Positions 30,001 through 54,000 of a stretch of 64,000 bases of DNA are shown here, piece after piece. The position numbers are program-made. The stretch is taken from positions 6,572,001 through 6,636,000 of the forward strand of contig NC_135259.1 of assembly GCF_964204865.1 (NCBI RefSeq), read 5' to 3'. This DNA is from Styela clava (taxonomy: Eukaryota). How positions within the stretch are numbered: position 1 is the stretch's first letter; every line of letters starts with the position of its first letter.

Positions 30001-33000
30001 CATTTGGCATAAAAAAAAACTAGGCTCAAATGAAAAAATTGTTGTTTGTCGAGATTTTTGCAAAAAAACACATCAGTTCAATACTTTAATTTTAACTTTC
30101 ATACAAGTTTATACGAATGCATGACCCTACTGAATTTAGTTTAAAATATACCTTCACATTGCTTTATCACTTCGGTCGATGTACAGTTTAAATGAACAGA
30201 GTTTGTAACTTGGGATTGAATTTTCAAATTGTGTCATAGATTCTACTTTTCTTGAACAGTCTGTGGCACAGCTAAAGTACTATCTGTGTTGAGTTTTATC
30301 AGAAATTATGGTACTAATTGATAAATTTCAATTTTCCTCCAAACAGACCAAAACAACATACGGCTATGATGGAACCGAGCTATCAGATTCCTACTGGGGC
30401 AAAGAGCCATCAGAGCTCACGTTGGGAGATAACATGATTATAAGAGCTCATGAAACTGTGAAAAGAAGTTTTCTGTCGAATTTCGGATACAGGGAAACAA
30501 GATATGAACGTATTCTCTGTTCATGGCCATTCAAGAAATAGATATATTCTACTACTAAAAGAAGAAACCCCAGTCTACAAGTTTTTGCGAATTTTTTATA
30601 CGGAAAAAAAACTCTTAAATTAATATATTTAAATTGTGGTCAATTGAAAATACTTTCTTAAAATTGGTTAGTCGTTTTGACACCGCCCTTTTCGATAAGC
30701 ACATTGCGTTCTTGATATTTGCGCATATTGCTCTTTTGATTAGAAAACTGTATGCACGATAAAATACCAGATATATAGAATACAAAGTAATTGGAGCTTA
30801 TACTTTAGTGTTACCTCCGTATGACAATTTCTCAGAATAAATACGACTGGGTGTAGGACCATTGGACTCGGAATTACGTTCATGAATTTTGACGTATACA
30901 TTTTGCGTTTTTAATTTTTCTGCTGATAAAAACTCAATAAAAAATACGAAAAATGAATAAATTGTGTGTTACGTTGAAGTTTCAACGTGAACTGGCCATT
31001 GAGTGGAAATATTCCAATTAAGTATATAGAATACTCAAGCTTCGGTGATGTTCATTAATTAAAAAGATTTTATCTTAGGTTACCGCTACTCCAAATAAAA
31101 TATGAAAATGGGCTAGTTGACGAGACAGATGGAATTTGCATATAATTGTTGACAATGAATTTAAACTATATAACACTAAAGAAATGAGTGAAGACAGCGA
31201 TAGTCAATGAGATGTATCTCTAGTAGTAGCTTTTCAAATTGCATCTTAACATCTTACAAGAGACCTGCGCTGTTTTGTGTATCTACAGTGTTATTCTGAA
31301 ATCATCATACATATCGATTGCAATGTTTCAGAGGAAATCACGAGGTACGCAGAAACAGACGCAAATTCCTGCGTCATATTGTTTTGTTTAGCACGGGGAA
31401 ATAAACGTATCACGCTTAAGGGCGTAACGCTTAATCGGCATGCGTGCGTATATTGAACTGTTATTTGTAAATTAGCGAACTTAATTGCCTACCTTTTAAT
31501 TTCCTAATGAAAATCCCATTGATCCCACTGCACATGATTCAAACTTCAAATTTCAGGGTTGACCGGAGCATAGTACTAGTTTTTTCGAAATGTGTAGAGA
31601 TAACTTGGATAGAACATAACAGTCCAAACGTAATAAAAAATTCGACGAGTCTTGCACGTTGATAATACAATCCAGAGTTCTGCCATATCCGATTATAACC
31701 ATAGTATAATTACTCGGTATTAATTTGCAGTAAACAATAAAAAACTGATCAAATTATAAAAATTTTGTTAGAATACAATTGTAAATTTATTCGCATACTT
31801 AAATAACTTGAAACGTATATTCTTAGGGTAACGAATGCAAGCCACAACTTGCCCGCATCTGGGGCAAGCCTGTCCGCCCGGCAAAGACTACAAAATGAAA
31901 ATAAATAACGGACACAACGGTTTAACACAAATGGGAAAATATCGATTCATAAATTGCAATTCCTGATTGTTCACCTCGTATCCCAAGTGTATTTTTTCAC
32001 AGAACAATTGTTTTTCTTTTGCATTATTCCAATGGTTTCCATCTGTTCATCGCTCAGCCGTTGATAACTGAGCTTGATGTGGCTCATTGTCGCTTGGTAT
32101 TTCTCTGCCTATTATAGGCTGCAAACACATTTTCGTATTTATTCGTAGTCAAAAAAACAAATTTAGCAAGTTAGGTTTGATATGTACATATTGGAAATAT
32201 GTAAACCAGGGGTCGGCAACCTACGACCCGCGGGCCGGAGCAATATAATCCGGCCCGCGACGCTTCGCTGAGTTATAGTAACAAAACAGCTGTTTTTACG
32301 ATTATAGTCTTTACGTAACAGAATTTATTGTGAGACACGTGTATAGACTAATTTATCTAACAAGTAAATAATTCACAATTACTCGTTTAATGATCCTATA
32401 ATTTAATTATAATTAGACAAATGGCAATAAAACGCAGAAAAGCTGATGTTACGTGCAAATGGTTTAATGGCGCAGAAAATATTCAATCTTCGCACGCTGC
32501 TTAAAATTTAACTTCTGGCCTGTGTGGAAACATGTGATTCATCGGCGATCCGTTCGGTTTTTAACTTTCTATAAATACGTGCGGCCCGCCAATGATTCGC
32601 AACCTTTAATTTTGGCCCATAATTATGGCGCATGACATATATTTGGCTTAAAGTTTGAGCTATATTAGGCGATATTCGGAATATAGAGTATGACATTTAA
32701 AAAATAACCTGGTGAGAGTACATATATTTGGCTTAAAGTTTGAGCTATATTAGGCGATATTCGGAATATAGAGTATGACATTCAAAATCGAACCTGGTGC
32801 TCCTCTTCCAATTGCGAGGGCTTTCGCAGTAAACATACAAAAGGAGCAAATGCGATATTTAATATTGCAACAATATACATTAACCAAGTAAACCCAATAA
32901 GGCGTATTACTGTGCCAGCTACAACGGGACCTGTAAAACGAGATAGTTATCAGTTTCTCTGGTTTGCTTTGCCTATGATTCAAATAATTAGATTGCTAAG

Positions 33001-51000: not shown

Positions 51001-54000
51001 ATAAAATATATGCACTTTTGAAATGTAAGCTATTTGTAAGCTAACGAAAGTAGGGTTGGACAAGATTCTGTAGAGTTTAATTCCAACATTTGTATACTTT
51101 AGTTGAATACAGCGTTAAATCTTATTGTAAAAATTTTCCGAAATAATTTTGAAAAAAGTGTTTAAATCAAAGCACAGCTTGAAAAAGGGCAAATTAGTCT
51201 TTAGTTGTTCAGCATGTTCATCTCCAGAAAGATACTACATCCAATTACATTAACCGAATTCTTATTTCTGAGCATCTTTCTGGTATTGAATGATAATTTC
51301 AACAAAACACATATCGTGTTGATTTCCTATTGTTTGCTTCGTACAATTCGTAATAGCGATAAAACATTCAAAACGAAAAAAAAAATCAATACATCAAACA
51401 CCGAGGCAAATATATCTAGTAATAATGTCGCGGTGCTCCTGAAGTATGCGCACCAAGATGTCGCAATAGAATTAAATTTTTTTTATGAACGTCAATTGTA
51501 GATTCAATTTTCAAGCATTTTTTAGAAAGCATAAAATTACATAAACCGCACAACAGACGTAATTTCTGGACTTCATAACAAACAAGACTGGGAAATTTAA
51601 CTGTATTCGGTAGCATGTGAAAAATTATTGTATTCGTTAGAATAGTGGTATCATTTTTTATTTGATGACTTCAACGCCTAAATCTACAAGAGTCGCACTG
51701 ATTATCATTTCGGTTATTTGTTTAGTTGGGGTACTCGTTTATTTAGTGGAATTGGATGAATGAATTTGTGTGAAATTTCACTTAGTCCTTCAATTCGGGA
51801 AATCCATAGGTCTAATTTTGTTATAATTGTACACAAGCCAAAGTCAATATGTGTAATGCGTTAAATAAATTAACACGTGGCAATAATCAGCTATTACCTG
51901 ACCAGAATTCGAAAGCTGTAATTGCCTTGAACTTAACTGAAGTGATCCTATGATAAATGAAGCAGCAGCGAGCACCAGAAATGGTGTTTCTTTTCCTGCC
52001 AGTTCGTAAGTGACGCTACCGAAACTTGGGCCGACTGAAAAAATAAAGTAATTCAATATCACATATGCGTGCTACAGTTGGGTAAACATTACACAAATAA
52101 GTTCGTTTATTTTTTTGCAAAAAATACGTTTATCCTATTTTCATACTACAAATAAATACGAAATTACTTAGAACCCCCATTGCCAGGCCTCCTAGTGCGA
52201 TTCCCATCATTTTTCCTCTTTCTTCGTCATCTGGAAATCTGCTTGCAAGCATTGCCAGTCCAGCTGTTGAGGCACACGCTGATCCAATGCCTTGTAATGC
52301 ACGAGCAAAAAATAGAACGGGATACGTCTTTCCGAAAGCAAAAACTATAGAATGAAATTTTTCACAGTTATTCATTTAAAATTGAACAAATAGTCTGCAA
52401 ACTCTTTTAACTAGAATGTGACTTACTTAGCGAAGATACTACCAAAACTATGTATCCTGAGAACATCGGTACGTCGTAACCAAATCGGTCAGTCAGAGGG
52501 CCAACCGCAATATTTGCTATTGCTTGAATAAACGGTTTCGAGGCAAGAAGGAATGCGAGAAATAGATTTTCGGCTGCTAAGAACTGCTTGTTACGACTTT
52601 CCAGACATTCGCTTCCTGTACCGTTTCTAGAAACTGCAAATACATAAGTTGTGTGAATAGTCATAGTCACAGCTTCCATGAACAATGTACAGGGTTATAA
52701 TTGAATAGATTGTTAAATAATTCGAGTGGATCTTGGCATGGTGCCACTAGCGTCCAAGCCAACTTAAGATAATGATCAATTCGACAACAAATCAGATTAT
52801 GTTTGCTAGTGGATTTAAATCGTAGGATTTTAAAGGTCTTTTTGTGCAAGTACTGATTTGAGATGAGAATGTAACTAACAAATAATAAAATAATAAATAA
52901 AATGTTCTTTAAGCAATTTACAAATATAGGGCCCATTTACCATGAGTTGTCTCTGTTGTTTGTCCCTCCGTGGTTTGTTTTTCTAAAGAACGAGTACTTA
53001 CTTCATGTATACCGGTTAAGGAGGAGAATTCTTTAGCTTCCTCATGGAAGAAATATTCGGGCAATATTGGAACTGAAAAATAATATTTAATAATAATGAA
53101 AAATATTCAGCAAAATGACTCAATGACTTCAATGACTGTAGGAAATTGTAATTCCCAGTGGCATCAGATTATACATTATGTAGAATGAAATATACAATAA
53201 TACACGGCATTGTCAATGTTGGAACTTTACACAATTATACCCGACGAGGCGTAATATTTTTCACCGTAGTGCTAAAAGACTTTATATTGCTTAACAACGA
53301 AATCTAATTGCAATATAGAGAAAAGAAAACTTATTAAATGCCATTAAATCGGGAGTTAGACGGCTAAATTTGAATTCACTTGATTCCAAATATGTAGTTT
53401 AAATTTAATACTCACCTACACAAGTCAGAAGCATGTTATCCACCATCAAAGTCGCGTAAACTATAAATACTGCCAGGCGATTGGAGTGTCGAAATTTGTC
53501 AAATCCTGCCTTAAATCGTGATTCACTCGCTTCCATATTTTAGTTTAAATGGTAAAAGCTTCATATCTAAAATGTAAATATTGTGACAGCTATTACATGT
53601 ATACATAATTTGTGTTGGTAAAAATATATTTTATACTAACTATACACTAAACCACAAATAGACCAAGCGACATGAAGGCAATTTTAAATAGCATTTCTAA
53701 ATGGAGCTATAGTAAAGTTATGCATATACAGAGTTTTAAAATCTATTGTCTCGCATATTCTTTATTTTTCGGAGGGCACCTTACTCTCCTACTAAAGAAT
53801 GCCTAAAAATGAAAGGTAATTTCAAACGATTAGACATCACTTATTGATTTATTACACTTCTGTAGATTGAAACCTTGCACTTGTCTGAATAGGCCCTGCA
53901 CTGACGTTTAATCACACTAACTTGCATTAGTTACATAATTGTTAAGCGAAATAATTGCAGCTTTAAACACAATGTTAATATGAATTCTGAATTGAAGTTC

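What the first reader, a model, noticed from the sequence alone, without database searches (positions are those of the whole stretch)
32047..53536. Tandem array of three vesicular monoamine transporter paralogs in birth-and-death
Seen: three head-to-tail minus-strand copies with matching exon boundaries where retained: C intact, A one base from intact, B decayed. A and C differ substantially in protein, so the duplication is not recent. Known: VMAT is normally a low-copy gene (two in vertebrates, one in fly and worm). Inference: a lineage-specific expansion suggests non-neuronal cargo, such as catechol/DOPA-derived or other cationic metabolites loaded into blood-cell or tunic-cell vacuoles. 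An acidic dileucine-type sorting tail is retained (DDEKQAII in C, EEEHQPII in A).
Basis: partly seen in the sequence, partly recalled or inferred. Interest (0 to 1): 0.72.

Follow-up and report, generated by a model that had tools for sequence, protein, structure and literature searches.

The report
Three tandem VMAT gene copies
Three head-to-tail copies of a vesicular monoamine transporter gene sit here, one intact, one broken by a single missing base and one long dead; this is an old, ordinary gene duplication of a kind already reported for sea squirts.

Summary
On the minus strand lie three SLC18A (VMAT-type) gene copies.

- Copy C (48602-53536) is an open 10-exon model of 1476 nt with AG/GT at all 9 introns.
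- Copy A (32047-38805) has the same 10 exons and intron phases. Its exon 8 is one base short, near 33085, which brings a stop at the end of that exon.
- Copy B (about 41851-45973) is a pseudogene. It has no start codon, an in-frame TAA, two frameshifts, and 5 of 10 exons undetectable.

Exon by exon, C and A score best against solved VMAT1/VMAT2 structures, above VAChT. C keeps the charged residues of the VMAT transport site. A and C are 65% identical in protein, with synonymous sites near saturation and dN/dS about 0.17. No long intron homology is left, so the duplication is old and not an assembly artefact.

Both copies are equally close to vertebrate VMAT2. Razy-Krajka et al. 2012 already report two VMAT genes from an ascidian-specific duplication in Ciona. 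The organism of this window was not established. Interest is low.

The parts
53416..53536 (-). Copy C exon 1 (ATG at 53536; TM1 with D33/N34 columns)
52941..53072 (-). Copy C exon 2 (luminal loop 1)
52427..52633 (-). Copy C exon 3 (loop Cys, K138 and Q142 columns)
52168..52344 (-). Copy C exon 4 (MFS_1 above cutoff; R189 column)
51898..52034 (-). Copy C exon 5
50793..50952 (-). Copy C exon 6 (E312, W318 and Cys-324 columns)
50274..50421 (-). Copy C exon 7
   Evidence: no solved-structure hit
49343..49509 (-). Copy C exon 8 (D399 and D426 columns)
48976..49112 (-). Copy C exon 9 (last TM; ends DDEKQ)
48602..48691 (-). Copy C exon 10 (starts AII; 29 codons plus stop)
38679..38805 (-). Copy A exon 1 (ATG at 38805; N34 column is Tyr)
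38092..38220 (-). Copy A exon 2
37267..37476 (-). Copy A exon 3 (Q142 column is Glu; donor GTTAGT)
35441..35617 (-). Copy A exon 4
35166..35302 (-). Copy A exon 5
34236..34395 (-). Copy A exon 6
33812..33959 (-). Copy A exon 7
33053..33218 (-). Copy A exon 8: 166 nt against 167 in C. The single-base gap lies just 3' of 33085 (placement free within a few bases). As written, the frame runs into TAG at the exon's end.
32794..32930 (-). Copy A exon 9 (open in C's phase; ends EEEHQ; weak donor GTTCGA)
32047..32118 (-). Copy A exon 10 (starts PII; 23 codons plus stop, read in C's phase)
45889..45973 (-). Copy B exon 1 remnant: the first 12 or so codons and the ATG are gone; the donor GT is kept
44727..44903 (-). 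Copy B exon 4: in-frame TAA at 44881-44883; R189 column is Pro
44471..44607 (-). Copy B exon 5 (open, 137 nt as in A and C)
42236..42384 (-). Copy B exon 7: one extra base near its 3' end (frameshift)
41851..42027 (-). Copy B exon 8: 10 nt longer than in C, with stops; D399 column is Gly
35749..36663 (+). Broken transposon-like ORFs inside intron 3 of copy A; the last one has a weak GIY-YIG match
   Evidence: E 0.0069, 17.1 bits, below the 22.6-bit cutoff
32635..32799 (.). 85-bp tandem duplication (1.9 copies, 95% matches) that includes the exon 9 donor of copy A, so the donor site is present twice

Best explanation
This is a tandem array of three SLC18A-type vesicular monoamine transporter (VMAT) genes made by old local duplications and now in three different states.

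Copy C is a working gene for a 12-helix major-facilitator proton/monoamine antiporter. By analogy with VMAT1/2 it would use the vesicle's proton gradient to load serotonin, dopamine, histamine and similar amines into acidic secretory vesicles, and its C-terminal acidic Ile-Ile motif would serve vesicle sorting and endocytosis.

Copy A was a working paralog for most of its history and is now interrupted by a single-base deficit in exon 8. The lesion is either very recent or an error or polymorphism of this assembly.

Copy B was once functional and has been dead for a long time.

Shown here: gene structures, lesions, family assignment exon by exon, conservation of transport-site residues, divergence and purifying selection. 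Inferred: substrate, direction of transport, sorting role, and the order of duplication (possibly C first, then A/B).
For: Structure. C has 10 exons summing to 1476 nt with 9 of 9 GT..AG introns. A has the same exons and phases with 9 of 9 GT..AG introns, summing to 1463 nt. A carries a single gap in exon 8, with everything downstream open in C's phase.

Family. Pfam MFS_1 is above cutoff on C exon 4 (43.1 against 33.4 bits) and sub-threshold on exons 3 and 9 (10 of 10 C exon peptides scanned). Against solved structures, 7 of 10 C exon peptides were searched. Six of the 7 have VMAT1/VMAT2 as best hits. VAChT is lower in 4 of them: exon 4, 66.5-76.3 against 50.7-51.8 bits; exon 8, 52.3-64.8 against 38.5-39.7; exon 3, 34.8-42.8 against 25.9-27.7; exon 6, 41.7-47.2 against 20.8-22.0. 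VAChT is absent at E<=0.1 in 2 (exons 1 and 9). For A, 3 of 10 exons were searched and VMAT is the top hit in 3 of 3.

Residues. C has D33, N34, K138, Q142, R189, Q192, S196, S200, E312, W318, D399, D426 and F429 at the columns of human VMAT2. These residues are named as cavity or polar-network residues in PMC10959523 (passages read).

Selection. For A-C, aa identity is 0.65, pS 0.64, dN 0.25 and dN/dS 0.17 (bootstrap 0.11-0.24) over 473 codons. On the 214 codons B retains, pairwise dN/dS is 0.11-0.17. Constraint in A after the break is not detectably relaxed: 1052 of 5000 random codon sets reach its pN.

Age and not an artefact. Between copies only exons and the short intron 4 still align.

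Precedent. Two VMAT genes from an ascidian-specific duplication are reported in Ciona, one expressed with TPH and one without larval signal (PMC3414799).
Against: - C exon 7 gave no hit to any solved structure at E<=0.1.
- 7 of 10 C exon peptides gave no Pfam family at E<=1, apart from a chance-level holin match on exon 7.
- C differs from human VMAT2 at F135 (Leu), Y433 (Phe) and D460 (Asn). By ungapped extrapolation of numbering, it also differs at the gate residue F334 (Thr), which is an inference and not an alignment.
- A carries changes at three columns of one polar network (N34 to Tyr, Q142 to Glu, Lys at the D426 column) and 2 of 9 donors with T at +3. It may therefore have been losing or changing function before the frameshift.
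- For A exon 4 the margin over VAChT is small (61.5 against 53.6 bits, with one engineered VMAT2 chain at 52.9).
- dS is close to saturation, so dN/dS values are rough.
- No expression or transport data, no full-length model, no phylogeny, and the organism is unknown.
Confidence: 0.8

Rival explanations
1. One reading: the extra copies exist because one or more paralogs took on a new, non-neuronal cargo (catechol/DOPA-derived or other cationic metabolites) loaded into vacuoles of blood or tunic cells.
For: A differs from C and from human VMAT2 at three columns of the TM1/TM2/TM11 polar network that contacts substrate amines: N34 to Tyr, Q142 to Glu, and Lys at the D426 column. In Ciona the second VMAT gene gave no larval neuronal signal. 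Ascidian granular 'test cells' store histamine and heparin according to a review (PMC9505265, passages read), so a non-neuronal amine store exists in that group.
Against: C keeps the full VMAT residue set. A and C are equally close to human VMAT2 (153.6 against 158.8 summed bits over three exons). dN/dS is 0.17. The only diverged copy, A, is frameshifted in this assembly. Three searches listed no paper linking VMAT to tunicate blood or tunic cells. A tunicate origin of the window is not shown.
Confidence: 0.1
2. Copy A is in fact intact in the animal. The missing base would be an assembly or sequencing error or a private allele, and the locus would hold two working VMAT genes plus one pseudogene.
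For: There is a single lesion in 1463 nt. All 18 splice dinucleotides are kept. Exon 9 and exon 10 are open in the right phase. pN after the break is not raised (1052 of 5000). The overall dN/dS is low. Two VMAT genes are reported for Ciona.
Against: The gap is not inside a long homopolymer: it lies next to a run of three A, and the nearby run of five T is equal in A and C. The D426 column is not Asp in any placement of the gap that avoids a stop. 2 of 9 donors are weak. An 85-bp duplication sits on the exon 9 donor.
Confidence: 0.3
3. The array is a haplotype or assembly artefact: one gene written three times.
For: None beyond the tandem layout.
Against: Copies are 65-75% identical in protein with near-saturated synonymous sites. 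Introns and spacers do not align. The three copies carry different lesions and different insertions.
Confidence: 0.01
4. The genes are not VMATs but another SLC18 or MFS branch (VAChT, SLC18B1-like or portabella-like).
For: Only solved structures could be compared. No SLC18B1 or portabella chain appeared among the hits, so these were not explicitly excluded. A exon 4 scores close to VAChT.
Against: VMAT1/2 are the best hits in 6 of 7 C exons and 3 of 3 A exons searched, ahead of VAChT by about 7 to 26 bits where both hit. About 69% identity to human VMAT2 in exon 4, my count from the alignment. VMAT-specific cavity residues are kept.
Confidence: 0.03

Closest known systems
Vertebrate VMAT2 / VMAT1 (SLC18A2 / SLC18A1), solved by cryo-EM (e.g. 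8wlj, 8ucj, 8tgg)
   Same: Best hits for 6 of 7 C exons and 3 of 3 A exons searched. C has the same residues at D33, N34, K138, Q142, R189, Q192, S196, S200, E312, W318, D399, D426 and F429, plus a loop-1 Cys aligned with a VMAT1 Cys and a Cys at column 324. The C-terminal acidic motif is followed by two hydrophobic residues.
   Different: Luminal loop 1 is shorter and unalignable. C has Leu at F135, Phe at Y433 and Asn at D460. The gene is compact, with 10 exons. There are three local copies instead of two dispersed paralogs.
The two Ciona VMAT genes (CiVMAT) of Razy-Krajka et al. 2012, PMC3414799
   Same: That paper reports two VMAT genes arising from a duplication specific to the ascidian lineage, one expressed in TPH-positive cells and the other without larval signal (passages read). 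This fits 'C working, A doubtful'.
   Different: Identity with this locus could not be tested. The passages read mention neither a tandem layout nor a third, dead copy.
VAChT (SLC18A3)
   Same: Same SLC18 family and fold. It is the second-best group of hits for exons 3, 4, 6 and 8.
   Different: It scores about 7 to 26 bits lower wherever both hit, and gives no hit for exons 1 and 9 at E<=0.1.
Drosophila/honey-bee portabella, an orphan SLC18-type vesicular transporter
   Same: A precedent for an extra lineage-specific SLC18-type transporter beside the single invertebrate VMAT (named in the bivalve preprint, passages read).
   Different: Portabella is used there as an outgroup to VMATs, so it is much more distant. 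The copies here are all VMAT-like. No sequence comparison with portabella was possible.

Membership tests
SLC18A vesicular monoamine transporter (VMAT) | Major-facilitator (MFS) fold with 12 helices | tested here: inconclusive
   Pfam MFS_1 is above cutoff for C exon 4 only (43.1 against 33.4 bits) and sub-threshold for exons 3 and 9. Hydrophobic stretches occur in 8 of 10 C exon peptides. The full-length test was not done because exons were not joined.
SLC18A vesicular monoamine transporter (VMAT) | Closer to VMAT1/2 than to VAChT or other MFS transporters | tested here: met
   For C, 6 of 7 exons searched have VMAT as top hit and 1 of 7 (exon 7) has no hit. For A, 3 of 3 have VMAT as top hit. 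Bacterial EfpA is the only other family seen, at 20-23 bits.
SLC18A vesicular monoamine transporter (VMAT) | Titratable cavity residues D33, K138, R189, E312, D399, D426 (list from PMC10959523) | tested here: met
   Copy C has 6 of 6. Copy A has 5 of 6, since the D426 column is Lys at the break. Copy B has R189 as Pro and D399 as Gly.
SLC18A vesicular monoamine transporter (VMAT) | Luminal loop 1 to loop 4 disulfide cysteines (the importance of the disulfide is stated; the residue numbers 117/324 are recalled) | tested here: met
   The C exon 3 Cys aligns with a VMAT1 loop Cys. There is a Cys at column 324 in C and in A. A's loop-1 Cys codon aligns with C's.
SLC18A vesicular monoamine transporter (VMAT) | C-terminal acidic, dileucine-like sorting motif (the [DE]xxxL[LI]-type consensus is recalled and comes from no call) | tested here: met
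   C has DDEKQ|AII and A has EEEHQ|PII across the phase-0 junction of exons 9 and 10. This is at sequence level only; function was not tested.
SLC18A vesicular monoamine transporter (VMAT) | Placement inside the bilaterian VMAT clade in a family tree | not tested
   The protein databases were closed and exons were not joined. Only the clade's existence is documented (PMC10244343).
SLC18A vesicular monoamine transporter (VMAT) | Proton-driven, reserpine/tetrabenazine-sensitive monoamine uptake | not testable with these tools
   Needs an uptake assay.
Birth-and-death tandem gene array | Same-strand neighbouring paralogs, at least one pseudogene, and divergence rather than homogenisation | tested here: met
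   There are three minus-strand copies within 21.5 kb. B is a pseudogene. No stretch of raised identity is seen between copies. A test for a mosaic B was not significant (chi2 4.50, p 0.105).

The most novel reading that the evidence does not exclude
Copy A is intact or only polymorphically broken in the animal. It would be a VMAT paralog whose TM1/TM2/TM11 polar network has been rebuilt (Tyr at N34, Glu at Q142, the TM11 acid moved by one position), giving it a different substrate range or proton coupling. It would work in a non-neuronal amine-storing cell type such as histamine-containing granular blood or test cells.
Probability: 0.1. Interest if true: 0.55.

Novelty: new member of a known kind. 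Interest (0 to 1): 0.25.

Why it matters
VMAT is the single gateway for loading all monoamines into vesicles, and it is usually single-copy in invertebrates. A locus that holds a working copy, a barely broken copy and a dead copy side by side is a tidy natural example of gene birth and death in a neurotransmitter transporter. It also gives a natural set of substitutions at drug- and substrate-contacting positions (N34, Q142 and the D426 region in copy A; F135, Y433 and D460 in both) that could be tested against the recent VMAT2 structures. Beyond that it is an ordinary duplication, and the duplication itself is already reported for ascidians.

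Tried and rejected
The boundaries were then obtained from numeric coordinates and AG/GT scanning.

2. One search had one piece of A exon 8 in the wrong frame, and timed out. Both were corrected.

3. Remnants of B's exons 2, 3, 6, 9 and 10 were sought with tblastn and with blastn at word size 7, with no convincing match.

4. A possible mosaic origin of B (5' exons nearer to C, 3' exons nearer to A) was tested. 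The site patterns do not differ significantly (p 0.105).

5. A relative-rate check of A against C, using the same human VMAT2 chain, showed no consistent asymmetry.

6. Lineage clues were sought without success. Rfam gave 0 matches and there were 0 tRNAs. One protein-atlas search of C exon 3 gave only generic MFS, UNC-93 and OATP neighbours at scores of 0.91 or below. The organism stays unknown.

7. Pfam was run on 9 plus 7 other ORFs in and around the array. The only results were the weak GIY-YIG match and the Bel/Pao polyprotein. My impression that ORFs at 17859-18428 and 4027-4293 look like hAT transposase is unsupported by any search.

8. Literature false leads. Three Ciona papers with 'Slc18a' concern VAChT only. 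The shown passages of PMC7883486 name no Ciona VMAT gene. The tick paralog paper matched 'VMAT' only through the program name Vmatch.

9. Not attempted:
- any joined (spliced) protein, and hence no full-length Pfam scan, fold, structure search or tree;
- Structure prediction, fold search and complex prediction, because single exons would not give meaningful models;
- Genome contigs and the phage, plasmid and E. coli collections, because they hold no animal genomes.

Full report
WHAT IS THERE

The window is 64,000 bases, has no N and is 35% G+C. Nothing in it was taken for human. Stop-to-stop ORFs on the minus strand between 32 and 54 kb show three sets of exon-sized pieces of one transporter. 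Each of the nine exon ORFs of the rightmost copy (C) was searched on its own against the whole window by tblastn. The search finds exactly three copies, all on the minus strand, and nothing comparable elsewhere in the 64 kb (exon 4 gives E 3e-32 against A and 2e-25 against B).

GENE MODELS

Exon ends were fixed from A-C nucleotide alignments, a scan for AG and GT around the ends of homology and a search for the last exon, and were then checked numerically.

Copy C has 10 exons (53536-53416, 53072-52941, 52633-52427, 52344-52168, 52034-51898, 50952-50793, 50421-50274, 49509-49343, 49112-48976, 48691-48602). The lengths sum to 1476 nt, and AG/GT is present at 9 of 9 introns. Every exon is open in its phase.

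Copy A has the same 10 exons (38805-38679, 38220-38092, 37476-37267, 35617-35441, 35302-35166, 34395-34236, 33959-33812, 33218-33053, 32930-32794, 32118-32047), again with AG/GT at 9 of 9 introns. The intron phases are the same, and 5 of 10 exons have identical length. The sum is 1463 (mod 3 = 2). The only indel inside the membrane core is a one-base gap against C in exon 8, just 3' of 33085. As written, the frame reaches TAG at the last bases of exon 8. Read in C's phase, the rest of exon 8, exon 9 and exon 10 are open.

The spliced models were never joined. Every search and count below was made exon by exon, so there is no full-length Pfam scan, fold, structure search or tree.

COPY B

In the 9.8 kb between A and C, only exons 1, 4, 5, 7 and 8 are found. 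Exons 2, 3, 6, 9 and 10 gave no convincing match with exon peptides of A and C (tblastn) or with exons plus 60-nt flanks (blastn, word size 7). The retained exons carry these lesions:
- Exon 1 lacks the ATG and about the first 12 codons.
- Exon 4 has TAA in place of a Tyr codon (44881-44883), and Pro at the R189 column.
- Exon 7 has one extra base near its 3' end.
- Exon 8 is 10 nt longer than in C, with stops, and has Gly at the D399 column.

Exon 5 is open. The acceptors of exons 4, 5, 7 and 8 and the donors of exons 1, 4, 5, 7 and 8 are still AG and GT. B is a long-dead pseudogene.

FAMILY ASSIGNMENT

Pfam on the 10 C exon peptides gives MFS_1 above its cutoff for exon 4 (43.1 against 33.4 bits) and sub-threshold MFS_1 for exons 3 and 9. 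The other seven give nothing except a chance-level holin match on exon 7.

Against the sequences of solved structures, 7 of the 10 C exons were searched.

| C exon | VMAT1/2 bits | VAChT bits |
|---|---|---|
| 1 | 17.4-21.9 | no hit at E<=0.1 |
| 3 | 34.8-42.8 | 25.9-27.7 |
| 4 | 66.5-76.3 | 50.7-51.8 |
| 6 | 41.7-47.2 | 20.8-22.0 |
| 7 | no hit | no hit |
| 8 | 52.3-64.8 | 38.5-39.7 |
| 9 | 30.6-35.4 | no hit at E<=0.1 |

For A, exons 3, 4 and 6 were searched, and VMAT is the top hit in 3 of 3. The margin over VAChT is small for exon 4 (61.5 against 53.6 bits) and large for exons 3 and 6. By my count from the alignment, C exon 4 is about 69% identical to human VMAT2.

TRANSPORT-SITE RESIDUES

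Dalton et al. 2024 (PMC10959523; passages read) name D33, E312, D399, D426, K138 and R189 as the titratable residues lining the VMAT2 cavity. They name N34, Q142, Q192, S196, S197 and S200 as part of the TM1/4/11 polar network, and F135, W318 and F334 as gate residues.

Through the native-numbered chains, copy C has D33, N34, K138, Q142, R189, Q192, S196, S200, E312, W318, D399, D426 and F429. It also has a loop-1 Cys aligned with a VMAT1 Cys and a Cys at column 324. C differs at S197 (Ala), F135 (Leu), Y433 (Phe) and D460 (Asn). If numbering is carried ungapped from exon 6 into exon 7, the F334 column is Thr in C and Ala in A. That step is an inference, because no alignment exists for exon 7.

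Copy A keeps D33, K138, R189, Q192, E312, W318 and D399. It has Tyr at N34, Glu at Q142 and Thr at S200. At the D426 column it has Lys preceded by Asp, exactly where the frame breaks. No placement of the missing base that avoids a stop puts Asp at that column.

AGE AND SELECTION

Nei-Gojobori counts were made per exon piece and only the counts were added. For A against C over 473 codons, amino-acid identity is 0.65, nucleotide identity 0.68, pS 0.64 (near saturation), dN 0.25 and dN/dS 0.17 (bootstrap over codons 0.11-0.24, 499 of 500 replicates usable). For exons 2 and 6 on their own, pS exceeds the limit of the correction.

On the 214 codons that B retains, pairwise dN/dS is 0.17 (A-B), 0.13 (A-C) and 0.11 (B-C). 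B therefore also spent much of its history under constraint.

In the membrane core of A, pN after the break (0.215 over 53 codons) is not distinguishable from the rest (0.180 over 315 codons). In a permutation test, 1052 of 5000 random codon sets reach the observed value. The frameshift is therefore recent, or it is not real.

C has a purine at donor position +3 in 9 of 9 introns, and A in 7 of 9.

A self-comparison of the window shows that between copies only exons and the short intron 4 still align. This rules out a haplotype or assembly duplicate.

Single-difference site counts on the shared 642 nt are A 53, B 82 and C 80. These fit, weakly, a first split of C from an A/B ancestor followed by faster change in the dead copy B. 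A mosaic origin of B is not supported (p 0.105).

WHAT IT MOST LIKELY DOES

By its residues and relatives, C should be a proton/monoamine antiporter of acidic secretory vesicles. The tails (DDEKQ|AII in C, EEEHQ|PII in A, across a phase-0 junction) fit an acidic dileucine-like sorting signal. That consensus, and its role in VMAT2, are recalled and come from no call. Substrate range, drug sensitivity and cell type are all inferred.

COMPARISON WITH WHAT IS KNOWN

Razy-Krajka et al. [quoted passage not shown] One is expressed in the TPH-positive peripheral domain and the other gave no signal. For that reason, and because no call established the organism of the window, identity with this locus could not be tested.

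Goulty et al. 2023 (PMC10244343; passages read) support a bilaterian VMAT clade that is sister to VAChT. A 2026 bivalve preprint (10.64898/2026.08.17.745212; passages read) says that all protostomes analysed have a single VMAT and treats portabella as an orphan outgroup transporter.

Three searches aimed at VMAT in tunicate blood or tunic cells, or at VMAT paralogs in ascidians, listed no paper that links them. A mast-cell review notes histamine- and heparin-storing test cells in ascidians (PMC9505265). Supplements of these papers, which I could not see, may hold copy numbers and trees that bear on novelty.

VERDICT

The interpretation as a birth-and-death tandem array of VMAT paralogs stands. 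The proposed exotic cargo is unsupported, and mild evidence points against it. The locus is a new instance of a known kind of event (possibly the very one already published for Ciona) and is of low general interest. One modestly interesting detail remains: the cluster of polar-network substitutions in copy A.

Noticed in passing
window 9601-16814 (+): A complete Bel/Pao-type LTR retrotransposon. It has a 1986-aa uninterrupted ORF at 10219-16179 with Pfam Peptidase_A17 (E 1e-50), DUF5641, Integrase_H2C2 and DUF1759, plus sub-cutoff rve and RVT_1. It is flanked by 611-bp direct repeats that are 99.8% identical (9601-10211 and 16204-16814). It looks like a very young insertion. Further partial repeats lie at 9261-9604 and 16816-16968.
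   Followed up: partly
window 35749-36663 (+), inside intron 3 of copy A: A string of broken plus-strand ORFs. The last one has a weak GIY-YIG nuclease match (E 0.0069, below cutoff). This may be a decayed Penelope-like or other GIY-YIG element (my reading, not shown by a call). It helps explain why intron 3 of A is about 1.6 kb, against 82 nt in C.
   Followed up: partly
window 32635-32799: An 85-bp tandem duplication (1.9 copies, 95% matches) that begins in the last 6 bases of exon 9 of copy A. The exon 9 donor is therefore present twice, 85 nt apart.
   Followed up: partly
window 49730-49823 (intron 7 of copy C) and 26462-26846: Two self-complementary (palindromic) stretches, of 94 nt at 93.6% and 385 nt at 82.7%. 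They could be hairpin-forming miniature transposons.
   Followed up: no
window 56059-56321 vs 19963-20517; 19646-19739 vs 4575-4668; 58511-58666 vs 25252-25398: Dispersed repeats shared between the two flanks of the array, mostly in inverted orientation, 71-89% identical.
   Followed up: no
window 44904-45888 (between exons 1 and 4 of copy B): This interval (985 nt) is about as long as the corresponding stretch of C (1071 nt, which holds exons 2 and 3), yet it shows no trace of those exons. Whether they eroded in place or were replaced is unexplained.
   Followed up: no
window 53566 (30 nt upstream of the ATG of copy C): A pyrimidine-rich AG acceptor lies just upstream of C's start codon. It could mark a 5'-UTR intron or a trans-splice acceptor. 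This was not tested.
   Followed up: no
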